IMG/VR virus record: IMGVR_UViG_2671181012_000010
Source of the DNA: a virus
Lineage: Duplodnaviria; Heunggongvirae; Uroviricota; Caudoviricetes
DNA: 7,672 bases
Strand: one strand, 5' to 3'
This document shows positions 3,001-6,000 of the stretch, piece after piece (the stretch's first letter is position 1; each line of letters begins with the position of its first letter). Made by a program: the position numbers.

Positions 3001-6000
3001 GCCATACGCGCCAGTGCCATTGGTGTTCCTTTGCTGGTCTGTTTTTCCTGCGGGTCGTCCACCAGCCGCCCGTAAGCTGCAATCTGTGCTGTCATGATTC
3101 CACCTCTCCGGTTTTAACGTTGATGGTTGCTACCTGTTCCGCTTCAGCAATCTCCCGTTCTGTCAGCGTGGCAAAGTTTGCCGCCGCCGTGGTCATGAAT
3201 GCGCTTATCAGTTCGGGATGTTCCTTCGCGTATCCTTCTCCCGTGTTGCGGTCAATGATTTTTATCGCCACCCTCAGCCAGTGCTCTGTAATGTCAATGG
3301 CGCGGTGATCTGTCTTTTTGTGGCTTACTTTCATGATTTACTCCAGAGTACCGCTATTGCTGCCGTCGTTAACCGGATACCAGGCAAATACCCATGACTC
3401 ACCGCAGTGAACAAACTTCTTATCTGGCAGATAAAGGCACTCGCACGCCCCACAATCAGAATAATGCGGCTCCATGCCTGCTTCACCTGGCAAGACGGGT
3501 AGTATCTCCTGATACGCACATCCCGTATTACAGGGGGCGACCTCACAAAGCGCCCATGCAGCAATTGGGCTATACCATTCCGTACCGTCGTCATCTTTGA
3601 ACCTCGCCCACCAGCCAGGAAGGGCGCCTGATATGCTCAGCGTTTTAATGTCAGAGTTCATAAATTCACCTTTAAGTATCTTTGTCCTGCCGTGCTGCCT
3701 GATTTTCATTTTTTCTTTGCTCATTACATGATTCTCTCTGTAGTTACTGCGGGGAAATGGCATTAATCTCCCGCTTTGCTCTCTGTTTTTTAACTTCACA
3801 TATTCACTTATAAAGACACTTTTTGGGCGGATAAGCGGATATGAAGAAAAATATTGTTTGCATTCATTGTGTTACGTGATTTTTCGTATCCACCCATATC
3901 CGCCTTGTATGTTTTTTCTCTTCAGAATCAAACAGATAATGGCGGATACGGCTTTGTGTGTTTTTTGCACAAGATTGATATTTATCAATTTCCTCTCATA
4001 ACAGGGCGGATATATGCGGATAAGGGTGGATACGGAAATACAATATAATGATCTGATATATAAGCACTTTATTAACCATATCCGCTTATCCGCCCACTTT
4101 TTTACGCGTACACGAGAATACGATTTTTACTCCTCCGACTGGTCAAGAAGCACAATAAAGCGTTGCTGTATTCCGTTAACCTTTATCGTTTTGGTCGTCC
4201 AGTTTTTATCACCTGCATGAATCAGAATTCCGGCTTCTTTCAGTGCCTGGCATCCAAAATTTCGGTTAATGCCACACAGGATTTCTTCATCAAATACTGA
4301 CGGTATGATGTGGTATTCCGGTAATCCGTCATCACGTCGCCCTCTCACCAGATACCCCGCCAGACTGGTGATTCTCGCTCCGTAATTCACGTCCATATCT
4401 CCGTTCTGTCTGCCGTATGTGTACGGCTGAAAACGGCTAAGGGCGTGACGCTGAATGAAATCGCGGGCGCGACTGATAACCTGATATTTTTCCCTGTTAT
4501 CCAGTCCAAAATCCTGCAACCAGTCATCAAAAGCGCGCTGTGTGGCTGCATGGCTTTCTCCCGTTGTCCATCCGGTTATTCCCGTTGCCAGTTCTCCGGC
4601 TGCATCCAGCATTGCAAAACGGGATGCCACGCGTTTCACCTGGGGGGAAGCATTTTCAGGAAGACGACTAAGCCAGATGTTTTCTTTTTCGTTAACCACA
4701 CTGACCGCAAGTTCTTTGTTGGCTGACAACCAGCCGATCCACTCACGACCCGCTGCTCCGCAATAATTCGATGCAAACCGTTTTATTGCTCTGGCGTGCT
4801 GATCACCATCGTCATATCCGTTAAAAACCGTTGTATCAATAAACGGCACACTTAACAGGCGCACCAGTTGACCAGCTTTAGGCGTCACACCGCCCTTAAT
4901 CAGGAAGGTTTCGAAATCCTCCTCTCCCGTGCTCAGGGCCGCGATTCTCCAGCGTATCACCGCACGGTTACCGCCATCCTTACGCCCCTGAATACGCCCC
5001 ACACCGTTAAACAGGCTGTAGGCTGACTGCGCAATATCGTTAATCCGTCCGCCCTGACCGATTTCATCAATGGGGATAAAGCCATCATTACGTGCCGCAG
5101 CTTCCACCGTGAGGCCGTATCTGGTTGCATCCCATGAAAGTTTCAGCACTTCAGGATCACCGTAAAGACTTGTTGCTGCTTCCACTGTCGTGGTTTTTCC
5201 TGCCGACGACTGCGCAAAAAGATGAACACCAAAACAGCCGCCACCAACAAGGGAGTTCAGGGGGGCGGCAAGCCCGACCAGCACTCCAAGCATCATTGAG
5301 TGATTACCGCGCATCAGTGAGGCAACATTGTCGCGCCACTCATCAGCCGTACCCCGAACCACATAACCTTTAATCGCCGCCGAACCACCACAGAAGGCAA
5401 CGGGCCTTTCTGGTACGCCAATAATCTCACCATCCGGCATGACATAAGCGCCACAATGCCACCCCGCCGTTGAGGTGACCTCCCACTGTGTCCGCTCTCC
5501 TTCACGCTGAAGGTATTCCGCAAGTTTGTTTAAAAGTTTCTGACTGGTTGTCACTGCCACCCCACGCCCACGCAATCGCGACCATCCAGAAGGGAGGCCG
5601 ATTTCATTGCGGGGCATGGCCTCATAAATAATTTTTTCCATTCCCTCTGGTTCAAGTTCGATTATCAGATACCCATCGCAGCCATCATGGCCGATCCCCA
5701 CGGTTCGCATACGGTCACCAATCCACTCACACGGGCGGATAATTTCACCGGATTGCTTATCAACCTTTGGCGTAACCCAGTAAACGCCATCAGGACGGCA
5801 TTCAACGCGGGGTTTTAATTCATCCTCTGATTGTTCTGATGTTTTTTTCTTTACAGGCAGCTCAATAACCAGTCCGTCAGAAATGTTTTTGCGCTCAGTC
5901 TCCAGATAGTTACGCCAGTTCTGCCGCTCGTTATGGTGCATACCTTCGGGGTAATAGTCTGCGTCCTGTACGCCTGCCGCCGCCAGCTTCTGACCTATGC

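What the first reader, a model, noticed from the sequence alone, without database searches (positions are those of the whole stretch)
3824..4096. Candidate origin: perfect 20-bp inverted repeat enclosing an AT-rich core with about 10 GGATA-core iterons resembling DnaA boxes
The 233-bp segment between the inverted-repeat arms combines an AT-rich unwinding-like core, a TTGATA/TATCAA palindrome, a GATC site, and repeated GGCGGATA / GTATCCACC motifs in both orientations (7/9 to the DnaA-box consensus). It lies immediately downstream of the primase/helicase-like gene and upstream of the SSB operon, the expected position for an element-encoded ori. A related motif (GACGGATACGGGCG) recurs inside the 128-bp direct repeats, hinting that one DNA-binding protein could link origin and operon control.
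Basis: partly seen in the sequence, partly recalled or inferred. Interest (0 to 1): 0.55.

Follow-up and report, generated by a model that had tools for sequence, protein, structure and literature searches.

The report
Satellite-island replication origin with iterons
This non-coding stretch is very probably the replication origin of a phage-inducible chromosomal island in E. coli, built from ten short binding-site repeats around easily melted DNA just after the island's own initiator-helicase gene; it is an ordinary example of a kind of origin already shown to work in a sister island.

Summary
Window 3824-4096 holds a perfect 20-bp inverted repeat, a second nested one, and ten G[C/T]GGATA repeats (8 of the window's 11 GCGGATA; 0.94 expected by chance). 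It starts 33 nt after the stop of a 712-aa gene.

That gene encodes a DUF927, MCM-like initiator-helicase. Its predicted fold matches SaPIbov1 Rep and SCCmec Cch. The window is an E. coli island at tRNA-Gly, syntenic with EcCICFT073, whose pri-rep/ori segment was shown experimentally to replicate.

In about 70 of 78 relatives with enough downstream sequence (37-68% identity), a 250-300 bp iteron array follows the stop codon. Where mapped, the layout is the same, but there are at least 13 different iteron words. The protein's C-terminal domain diverges most between those classes.

Among five close E. coli copies the GGATA core is 49/50 invariant, against 143/200 for the other ori columns. The window's least stable 40-mer (4036-4075) lies between convergent iterons.

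The origin reading is therefore supported. The DnaA-box resemblance, the GATC site and the proposed link to the upstream direct repeats are not. Those repeats flank a C4-type antisense RNA. This is a new member of a known kind, of moderate-to-low interest.

The parts
4127..6265 (-). rep: 712-aa initiator-helicase. It has an N-terminal ~130-aa alpha/beta domain, a DUF927 MCM-like ATPase core, and a C-terminal helix-helix-beta-hairpin domain.
   Evidence: Pfam DUF927, E 3.5e-40. PDB sequence hits to 5dgk and 8tch. AF2 model pLDDT 81. Foldseek to Cch E 2e-21 and to SaPIbov1 Rep E 9e-20.
3824..4096 (.). Candidate ori, the whole iteron array. In rep-strand order the layout is: >> / AT-rich / <<< / < / >> / AT-rich / <<.
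4079..4093 (-). Proximal iteron pair (GCGGATA at 4087-4093 and 4079-4085, 8-bp spacing). This is the right arm of the 20-bp inverted repeat.
4036..4075 (.). Predicted melting site (DNA unwinding element): the least stable 40-mer in the whole window, 82% A+T.
   Evidence: Nearest-neighbour dG -40.2, against a window mean of -55.6 with sd 4.0. The same position is the stability minimum in most of the related loci mapped.
4006..4032 (+). Block of three iterons at 10-bp spacing (GCGGATA 4006, GCGGATA 4016, GTGGATA 4026), facing the proximal pair.
   Evidence: Copy number varies from 3 to 4 by a 10-bp unit in relatives.
3975..3988 (.). Central palindrome TTGATATTTATCAA in an AT-rich spacer. Its role is unknown.
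   Evidence: Read. Largely conserved as TTGATAYTTRTCAA.
3942..3948 (+). Single iteron GCGGATA.
   Evidence: It switches to GTGGATA together with all the others in L003, L004 and L088.
3887..3903 (-). Iteron pair at 10-bp spacing (GTGGATA 3887-3893, GCGGATA 3897-3903).
3842..3886 (.). Second AT-rich spacer, lying between convergent iteron pairs.
   Evidence: 3838-3877, dG -46.3.
3827..3841 (+). Distal iteron pair (GCGGATA 3827 and 3835, 8-bp spacing). This is the left arm of the 20-bp inverted repeat.
3799..3824 (.). Degenerate copy (73%) of the right arm plus its flank (4077-4102). Probably a decayed iteron pair.
   Evidence: family D3.
3338..3661 (-). 107-aa ORF of unknown function between the ori and the conserved downstream genes. 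It is absent from EcCICFT073.
3092..3334 (-). 80-aa protein, 87% identical to the first gene after the EcCICFT073 ori.
2646..3095 (-). Island-encoded SSB, 77% identical to the EcCICFT073 SSB.

Best explanation
Window 3824-4096 is the replication origin of a Gram-negative phage-inducible chromosomal island (PICI-type satellite) integrated at tRNA-Gly.

Inferred mechanism, by analogy with SaPI Rep proteins: the island's own 712-aa DUF927 initiator-helicase, encoded immediately upstream, recognises the ten G[C/T]GGATA iterons through its C-terminal winged-helix-like domain. It assembles on the oppositely oriented iteron blocks, probably as two hexamers, and melts the AT-rich spacer between them. 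The most likely melting site is 4036-4075. It then loads itself as the replicative helicase without a separate loader. The island SSB encoded downstream would coat the unwound DNA.

Shown here:
- the repeat anatomy and its non-random nature;
- the homology and predicted fold of the protein;
- synteny with an experimentally proven origin;
- conservation of the layout across the family, with the repeat word changing by clade;
- purifying selection on the repeat core.

Inferred, not shown: binding, melting, self-loading and actual replication.
For: 1. Anatomy. There are ten iterons in blocks of opposite orientation, spaced 8 or 10 bp, and they account for both nested inverted repeats. The array starts 33 nt after the rep stop codon. 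The least stable 40-mer of the whole window lies between convergent blocks.

2. Protein. Pfam DUF927. The only PDB sequence hits are Cch and SaPIbov1 Rep. The predicted structure matches both over about 575-587 columns, with TM-scores of 0.66-0.73 normalised to the target. Residues 650-707 form helix-helix-beta-hairpin, with a weak hit (E 0.15) to the Cch HTH domain.

3. Literature. SaPI Rep recognises 6-12 iterons immediately downstream of rep through a C-terminal winged-helix domain. An AT-rich centre is flanked by at least two iterons on each side pointing in opposite directions, and the helicase loads itself (PMC9371898; PMC7581432). E. coli PICIs have the same ori organisation. A pri-ori plasmid of EcCICFT073 is maintained, while the delta-ori and delta-rep versions are not (PMC6092414).

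4. Synteny with EcCICFT073. The order is Icd-like, small ORFs, pri-rep, intergenic iteron array, small ORF (87% identical), SSB (77% identical), PerC.

5. Family. In about 70 of the 78 related loci with enough downstream sequence, the 600 bp after the stop carries a 7-mer repeated 5-15 times, against 2-4 times (occasionally 5-6) in a control stretch inside the gene. The arrays start 23-40 bp after the stop and span about 250-300 bp. The 29 related loci mapped in detail share the orientation layout and mostly the position of the AT minimum. There are at least 13 different iteron words.

6. Specificity. C-terminal residues 601-712 are 72% identical within an iteron class and 40% between classes (ratio 0.55). 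The helicase core gives 81% and 62% (ratio 0.77).

7. Selection. Across five E. coli copies the GGATA core is invariant in 49 of 50 columns, the first G in 10 of 10, and the other ori columns in 143 of 200 (Fisher p 9e-6). Position 2 switches C to T in every copy together. Copy number changes by whole 8-10-bp units, which also rules out coding.

8. Episomes. Two circular 10.5-kb and 16-kb 'plasmid' records are complete satellites. In each, the DUF927 gene is the only annotated replication gene, and 8 of 9 or 11 of 12 iteron copies sit just downstream of it.
Against: - There is no experimental evidence for this element.
- The validated EcCICFT073 origin is served by an unrelated helicase type (primase_Cterm/P4 family). 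The functional transfer therefore rests on position and architecture, together with the SaPIbov1 precedent for DUF927 Reps.
- The link between the C-terminal domain and the iteron class is confounded by phylogeny.
- The C-terminal winged-helix assignment rests on a predicted model and a sub-threshold Pfam hit.
- About eight related loci showed no clear array (for example L038, L040, L064, L068, L076).
- The island's upstream Icd-like gene is annotated as two pseudogene fragments in the near-identical copy L001, so the element might be partly decayed even if its ori is intact.
Confidence: 0.85

Rival explanations
1. A DnaA-dependent origin: the GGATA/TATCC repeats are weak DnaA boxes and host DnaA opens the AT-rich core.
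For: TATCCAC and TATCCGC share 7/9 with TTATCCACA, and there is one 8/9 site at 4015-4023. In the GTGGATA relatives, several repeats read TTATCCACC, which is 8/9.
Against: - There is no 9/9 box.
- The window-wide count at up to 2 mismatches is 30 against 20.6 +/- 4.2 expected.
- There is no GATC cluster.
- At the same positions, homologous loci carry unrelated words (TGAACCA, GAACCGAC, CGGGTTA, GAGACAAC, TAGTCCAA) that cannot be DnaA boxes.
- SaPI-type Reps bind and melt their origins on their own (PMC9371898).
- An accessory role for DnaA in this one clade is not excluded.
Confidence: 0.05
2. An operator array: the repeats bind Rep or another island regulator only to control read-through or expression of the downstream SSB-ProQ-PerC genes, with no origin function.
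For: The array sits between two gene blocks transcribed in the same direction. In plasmids, iterons often double as autoregulatory sites (general knowledge).
Against: - No sigma-70-like promoter or intrinsic terminator was found in 3550-4250.
- The repeats follow rather than precede rep.
- The layout includes a conserved stability minimum between convergent repeats.
- The equivalent region of EcCICFT073 is required for plasmid maintenance.
- Episomal satellites have no other candidate ori.
Confidence: 0.05
3. A structured RNA or DNA cruciform: the nested inverted repeats act by folding, for example as a processing or termination signal in the read-through transcript.
For: The RNA fold of 3815-4105(-) is -92.6 kcal/mol, z = -7.7. 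Six predicted pairs show changes on both sides among the five E. coli copies.
Against: - The 'compensatory' changes are the same C-to-T switch that also hits the unpaired single iteron at 3942 and blocks of unequal copy number (2 versus 3, 3 versus 4).
- In other clades the opposing blocks are strongly asymmetric, for example 2 versus 5.
- No Rfam family matches apart from a spurious plant miRNA hit at E 0.055.
Confidence: 0.03
4. A miniature transposable element bounded by 20-bp terminal inverted repeats and flanked by a short duplication (ACTTTTT on both sides).
For: The terminal inverted repeat is perfect. ACTTTTT ends at 3823 and at 4102.
Against: - There is one copy per island, in only 10 of 5426 complete E. 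coli genomes, and always after the same gene.
- The arm motif recurs six more times inside the element.
- The flank match is part of a longer degenerate copy of the arm (family D3).
- The same architecture follows rep genes that are only 37-68% identical.
Confidence: 0.01

Closest known systems
EcCICFT073 ori, the E. coli PICI origin tested in Fillol-Salom et al. 2018 (PMC6092414)
   Same: - Same island type and gene order. The flanking proteins are 77-87% identical, and the first 160 aa of Pri-Rep are 62% identical.
- The ori sits in the same intergenic slot, beginning just after the rep stop.
- It has two iterons, then an AT-rich spacer, then inverted iterons, then further blocks.
   Different: - The iteron word is GTCTACC rather than G[C/T]GGATA.
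- The helicase and C-terminal part of its Pri-Rep is unrelated (primase_Cterm/P4 family versus DUF927).
- The window has an extra 107-aa ORF between the ori and the conserved downstream genes.
SaPIbov1 Rep and its ori (Staphylococcus aureus pathogenicity island)
   Same: - The Rep belongs to the same DUF927 / MCM-like structural family (PMC7581432).
- The ori lies directly downstream of rep, with 6-12 short iterons in opposite orientations around an AT-rich region, recognised by the C-terminal winged-helix domain. The helicase loads itself (PMC9371898).
   Different: - Sequence identity in the structural alignment is only about 13%.
- The host is Gram-positive.
- SaPI iterons are 5-6 nt, and the primase is a separate AEP-type protein (PMC7581432). 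Here the iteron is 7-9 nt and an extra N-terminal domain is fused to the helicase.
SCCmec Cch (5dgk)
   Same: It is the best structural match (E 2e-21, TM 0.73 normalised to the target) and carries the same DUF927 core.
   Different: I found no origin reported for Cch elements in the paper read (PMC7581432). SCC elements are not phage satellites.
Phage P4 alpha protein with ori and crr
   Same: It is a satellite-encoded primase-helicase whose C-terminal domain binds octamer iterons. The window's island also has P4/P1-like features (Icd-like gene, C4/CI-type antisense RNA).
   Different: - The alpha protein belongs to the primase_Cterm family, not DUF927 (for the family; the assignment of P4 alpha itself is from memory).
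- P4 needs two separated iteron regions, ori and crr. Here there is a single cluster and no second one in the island.
- The P4 iteron TGTTCACC (recalled from memory) is absent from the window.
Iteron-type plasmid origins (pPS10, RK2, F, R6K)
   Same: They also combine repeated initiator-binding sites with an AT-rich unwinding element.
   Different: - Plasmid Rep proteins are winged-helix dimer/monomer initiators with no helicase activity, and they depend on DnaA and DnaB-DnaC (general knowledge; PMC4980987 was listed but not read).
- Their iterons are 17-22 bp direct repeats, usually upstream of rep.

Membership tests
PICI / SaPI-type replication origin (iteron ori adjacent to rep) | Lies immediately 3' of the initiator (rep or pri-rep) gene. 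| tested here: met
   The first iteron ends 33 nt after the stop codon at 4127-4129.
PICI / SaPI-type replication origin (iteron ori adjacent to rep) | Six to twelve short iterons, with at least two on each side of an AT-rich region pointing in opposite directions. | tested here: met
   There are ten G[C/T]GGATA repeats. Convergent blocks flank 4033-4078 and 3842-3886. The window's least stable 40-mer is 4036-4075.
PICI / SaPI-type replication origin (iteron ori adjacent to rep) | The cognate initiator is a self-loading helicase of a SaPI Rep family with a C-terminal DNA-binding (winged-helix) domain. | tested here: met
   DUF927. Sequence and fold match SaPIbov1 Rep and Cch. The winged-helix-like C-terminal domain is seen only in the model, plus a weak HTH_56 hit at E 0.15.
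PICI / SaPI-type replication origin (iteron ori adjacent to rep) | The iteron sequence is specific to the cognate Rep. | tested here: met
   At least 13 iteron words occur across 75 relatives. The C-terminal domain diverges most between classes. This is a correlation only.
PICI / SaPI-type replication origin (iteron ori adjacent to rep) | Host element is an integrase-bearing island of about 10-15 kb with a PICI gene order. | tested here: met
   The island has int at tRNA-Gly, a small HTH regulator, Rha/Ant, an Icd-like gene, rep, SSB and PerC, and is syntenic with EcCICFT073. No capsid or packaging genes were seen in the part examined.
PICI / SaPI-type replication origin (iteron ori adjacent to rep) | The rep+ori segment drives autonomous replication, and Rep binds and melts the ori. 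| not testable with these tools
   The only indirect evidence is from related satellites deposited as circular episomes with no other rep gene.
DnaA-dependent (oriC-like) origin | A cluster of DnaA boxes close to TTATCCACA. | tested here: not met
   No 9/9 match and one 8/9 match in the region. The window-wide count is barely above shuffles.
DnaA-dependent (oriC-like) origin | A cluster of GATC sites. | tested here: not met
   One site in the region. The window has 18 against 26 expected.
DnaA-dependent (oriC-like) origin | The boxes are conserved in homologous elements. | tested here: not met
   They are replaced by unrelated words at the same positions.
P4-type ori/crr system | An alpha-type initiator (primase plus primase_Cterm/D5-like helicase). 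| tested here: not met
   The protein is DUF927, with no primase_Cterm hit.
P4-type ori/crr system | Two separated iteron regions (ori and crr). | tested here: not met
   There is a single cluster. The other GYGGATA sites in the 30-kb locus are isolated.
Miniature inverted-repeat transposable element | Several dispersed copies in a genome. | tested here: not met
   One place per island, in 10 of 5426 genomes, always after the DUF927 gene.

The most novel reading that the evidence does not exclude
The DUF927 helicase with its C-terminal domain, together with the ori downstream, may behave as one exchangeable specificity cassette among Gram-negative satellites.

Three observations point that way:
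- It is fused to at least two kinds of N-terminal domain. The same N-terminal domain also occurs on the unrelated primase_Cterm-type Pri-Rep of EcCICFT073.
- It comes in at least 13 iteron classes that all share one fixed architecture.
- Within E. coli, all iterons have switched together from GCGGATA to GTGGATA while Rep stays 95% identical. This could be an early step in an origin-specificity (incompatibility) shift.

If so, the family would give a readable recognition code linking the winged-helix domain to the iteron.
Probability: 0.35. Interest if true: 0.45.

Novelty: new member of a known kind. Interest (0 to 1): 0.3.

Why it matters
It places the replication origin of an unannotated STEC-associated island that carries PerC-family regulators, and it identifies the protein that should fire it. 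The island can then be tested as a mobilisable satellite.

More broadly, the roughly 70 related arrays, with one architecture and many repeat words, are a ready-made data set. They could show how self-loading MCM-like helicases read their origins, and how satellite replicons diversify. The result does not change the current view of origin biology.

Tried and rejected
- DnaA-box reading: rejected. There is one 8/9 match, and the word is not conserved across the family.
- GATC/Dam clustering: absent.
- Promoter and terminator scan of 3550-4250: nothing found. I could not place the promoter of the downstream genes.
- Rfam scan: only a spurious MIR530 hit on the ori. It did reveal the C4 RNA upstream.
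- RNA or cruciform reading: the strong predicted fold and the 'compensatory' pairs are a by-product of inverted iterons changing in concert.
- MITE reading: rejected on copy number and conserved position.
- P4 ori/crr model: no second iteron cluster and no TGTTCACC.
- Link between the ori iterons and the GACGGATACGGGCG motif in the upstream repeats: rejected. The motif is independent of ori type in L004, L087 and EcCICFT073.
- Literature search for the repeat word together with 'iteron': nothing relevant.
- Whether any of the four Pri-Rep variants compared by Fillol-Salom et al. (EcCICFT073, EcCIRM13514, EcCIO42, EcCIED1a) is the DUF927 type, or whether their Fig. 2a shows this repeat: could not be settled, because figures are not held.
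- Relaxed Pfam search of the N-terminal 160 aa: nothing found, so 'primase' remains unproven.
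Full report
**What is in the sequence**

The interval is exactly as described. Arms 3824-3843 and 4077-4096 are a perfect 20-nt inverted repeat with 233 nt between them. A second, nested inverted repeat (3881-3903 / 4016-4038, 23 nt, 91%) lies inside it.

Both are by-products of a short repeat. GCGGATA occurs 11 times in the 7672-base window, against 0.94 expected (0 of 200 shuffles reach 11), and 8 of the 11 lie in 3824-4096. Two GTGGATA bring the number of GGATA cores in the interval to ten.

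Read on the strand of the neighbouring gene, the order is:
- two repeats (4087, 4079; 8-bp spacing);
- a 46-bp AT-rich spacer;
- three inverted repeats at 10-bp spacing (4026, 4016, 4006);
- a spacer with the palindrome TTGATATTTATCAA (3975-3988);
- one more inverted repeat (3942);
- two direct repeats (3897, 3887);
- a 45-bp AT-rich spacer;
- two inverted repeats (3835, 3827).

G+C is 0.345-0.37 in the overlapping 200-nt windows covering 3701-4100, against about 0.5 elsewhere. The least stable 40-mer of the whole window by nearest-neighbour energy is 4036-4075 (-40.2, against a mean of -55.6 and sd 4.0). It sits between the first two, convergent, blocks.

**Surroundings**

The interval begins 33 nt after the stop of ORF 4127-6265(-), 712 aa. 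Downstream on the same strand lie two small ORFs, an SSB (2646-3095), a ProQ/FinO-domain protein (2162-2629) and a PerC-family protein (1900-2202).

The window is 99.6% identical to chromosomal islands in a few Shiga-toxin-producing E. coli. Only 10 of 5426 complete genomes carry this intergenic region, and nothing is annotated on it.

In strain 2018-166 the island runs from a tyrosine integrase beside tRNA-Gly through the following: a small HTH regulator, Rha and antirepressor genes, an Icd-like gene, the DUF927 gene, SSB, ProQ, three PerC genes and a Q-like antiterminator.

**The neighbouring protein**

- Pfam finds only DUF927 (residues 230-435, E 3.5e-40).
- The only PDB sequence matches are the SCCmec helicase Cch (5dgk) and the SaPIbov1 replication initiator (8tch).
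- An AlphaFold2 model built on 48 homologues (mean pLDDT 81) matches those two structures over about 575-587 columns (E 2e-21 and 9e-20; TM 0.73 and 0.66 normalised to the target). MCM, E1, large-T and SaPI5 PriRep follow far behind.
- Residues 650-707 form two helices and a beta-hairpin, as a winged helix would. They give a weak, sub-threshold hit to the 'Cch helix-turn-helix' Pfam family (E 0.15).
- No Toprim or zinc-ribbon primase domain is detected, although many relatives of about 920 aa have both. PHROG families labelled 'DNA primase' do match.

'Initiator-helicase' is therefore supported. 'Primase' is not shown.

**What is known about such proteins**

SaPI Rep proteins use a C-terminal winged-helix domain to recognise 6-12 short iterons placed immediately downstream of rep. 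An AT-rich region lies in the middle, with at least two iterons on each side pointing in opposite directions. The proteins bind and melt the origin without ATP and load themselves, probably as two hexamers (PMC9371898; PMC7581432).

Fillol-Salom et al. reported the same organisation for E. coli PICIs. They showed that a pri-rep-ori segment of EcCICFT073 maintains a thermosensitive plasmid, whereas the delta-ori and delta-rep versions do not (PMC6092414).

**Comparison with EcCICFT073**

I fetched that island. Its gene order matches the window's: YlcI-like, Icd-like, small ORFs, DUF4222 (present in the window's close relatives), pri-rep, a 288-bp intergenic region, a small ORF, SSB, PerC.
- The small ORF is 87% identical to the window's, and the SSB is 77% identical.
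- The first 160 residues of Pri-Rep are 62% identical, but the rest is unrelated. The EcCICFT073 protein belongs to the primase_Cterm/P4 family.
- Its intergenic region starts with two GTCTACC repeats, then an AT-rich spacer, then inverted copies and further blocks.

The window's interval therefore occupies the slot of a proven origin. The helicase, its C-terminal domain and the ori appear to have been exchanged together. The two E. coli types mirror the SaPIbov1 and SaPI5 types of Staphylococcus.

**Family-wide test**

A scan of species-representative genomes returned 80 loci encoding relatives at 37-68% identity. Of these, 78 had enough downstream sequence to analyse.
- In about 70 of the 78, the 600 bp after the stop codon holds a 7-mer repeated 5-15 times. 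A control stretch inside the gene gives 2-4 times in most loci, occasionally 5-6.
- The arrays start 23-40 bp after the stop and span about 250-300 bp.
- The 29 related loci mapped in detail share one layout whatever the word: two or three repeats, the local stability minimum, an inverted block, scattered copies, then a direct and a final inverted block. In most of these loci the stability minimum falls in the first spacer.
- The word differs by clade. Examples are (C)GGGATAA in the nearest relatives, TGAACCAACA, GAACCGAC, TAACCCGT, GGGACAAC, GAGACAACA, TAGTCCAA, TACCCGAC and others.
- C-terminal residues 601-712 are 72% identical within a repeat class and 40% between classes (ratio 0.55). The helicase core gives 81% and 62% (ratio 0.77). 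This fits a C-terminal specificity domain, although shared ancestry confounds the comparison.

**Close relatives**

Five E. coli copies of the ori were aligned.
- The GGATA core is invariant in 49 of 50 columns, and the preceding G in 10 of 10. The other ori columns are invariant in 143 of 200 (Fisher p 9e-6).
- Position 2 is C in most copies in the window and T in every copy in three other islands whose Rep is 95% identical.
- Copy number changes by whole units of 8-10 bp. This also shows that the region is non-coding.
- One strain carries two islands with 99.9% identical Rep. Their origins differ by one 10-bp unit.

**Episomal relatives**

Two small circular 'plasmid' records are complete satellites: K. 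aerogenes (10.5 kb) and K. pneumoniae (16 kb).
- Both carry an integrase, AlpA and capsid genes.
- In both, the DUF927 gene is the only annotated replication gene.
- In both, nearly all copies of the repeat word (8 of 9, and 11 of 12) sit just downstream of that gene.

- DnaA boxes. The region has one 8/9 match and otherwise 7/9 matches. The window-wide count is barely above chance. The unrelated words at the same positions in relatives rule out DnaA as the common reader.
- GATC. There is a single site and no enrichment.
- The motif GACGGATACGGGCG. It recurs because it is part of a 144-nt duplication (7067-7210 / 7524-7667, 94%). It is unchanged in an island whose ori repeats are all GTGGATA. 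It reads GACGAATACGGGCG in another such island. It has a counterpart at the same place in EcCICFT073, whose repeats are GTCTACC. It is therefore independent of the origin.
- What the duplication flanks. It lies on either side of a C4-type antisense RNA gene (7291-7379, 73 bits against a threshold of 45), the immunity RNA of P1 and P4.

**Rivals**

- An operator-only role is unlikely. The array follows rep, no promoter or terminator was found, and the equivalent region of EcCICFT073 is needed in cis.
- A folded RNA or cruciform scores well (z -7.7) and shows 'compensatory' pairs. These are the same concerted switch that also affects unpaired repeats and blocks of unequal copy number.
- A miniature transposon is excluded by copy number and by the fixed position after rep.
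- The P4 model fails on protein family, on the lack of a second cluster and on the repeat word.

**Verdict**

The interval is very probably the island's origin, of the PICI/SaPI type, served by its own DUF927 self-loading helicase. It is a new member of a known kind.

Binding, melting and replication are inferred, not shown. I could not determine whether this particular Rep type or repeat already appears in the published figure of E. coli PICI origins.

Noticed in passing
window 7291-7379 (-), with 7405-7495 (-) and the repeats 7067-7210 / 7524-7667: There is a C4 antisense RNA (Rfam RF01695, 73 bits, threshold 45), with sub-threshold isrK and c4-a1b1 target hits just upstream of it. The 144-nt direct repeats lie on either side, and each ends in a Shine-Dalgarno sequence plus a start codon on the minus strand. 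RefSeq annotates 'Icd-like' pseudogene fragments across this RNA. A relative (L087) has two C4 copies.
   Followed up: partly
window 5786-6265 (-), residues 1-160 of the 712-aa protein: The N-terminal domain is 62% identical to the N-terminus of the EcCICFT073 Pri-Rep, whose helicase part is of an unrelated family. The same domain is therefore fused to two different helicase types. Its strand-helix alternation, with E20 and D101-x-D103, is reminiscent of a Toprim fold, but no family search detects one.
   Followed up: partly
window 2162-2629 (-): A ProQ/FinO-domain protein is encoded next to the island SSB, in an element that also carries a C4-type antisense RNA. It could be an RNA chaperone for the island's own RNA control.
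   Followed up: no
window 1578-1628 / 1643-1693, and 507-971 / 1900-2202 (-): A 51-nt tandem-like direct repeat (82%) lies in the gap between PerC-family genes. The island carries several PerC paralogues.
   Followed up: no
L003 and L088 (NZ_CP027323.1, 3.86 Mb and 4.00 Mb): One E. coli strain carries two islands with 99.9% identical Rep and the same GTGGATA origin type. The origins differ by a single 10-bp iteron unit. This raises the question of whether such replicons interfere with each other.
   Followed up: partly
window 3799-3824: A degenerate copy (73%) of the right ori arm plus its flank lies directly outside the left arm. It looks like a decayed iteron pair.
   Followed up: no
L089 (NZ_CP142848.1) and L090 (NZ_CP069874.1): Two records deposited as small non-mobilizable plasmids are complete satellite elements (integrase, AlpA, DUF927, capsid or packaging genes), apparently captured as circular episomes.
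   Followed up: partly
L054 (CACSKA010000004.1): A contig titled Chryseobacterium sp. carries an Enterobacterales-like DUF927 locus with TGAACCA iterons. The record is probably mislabelled or contaminated.
   Followed up: no
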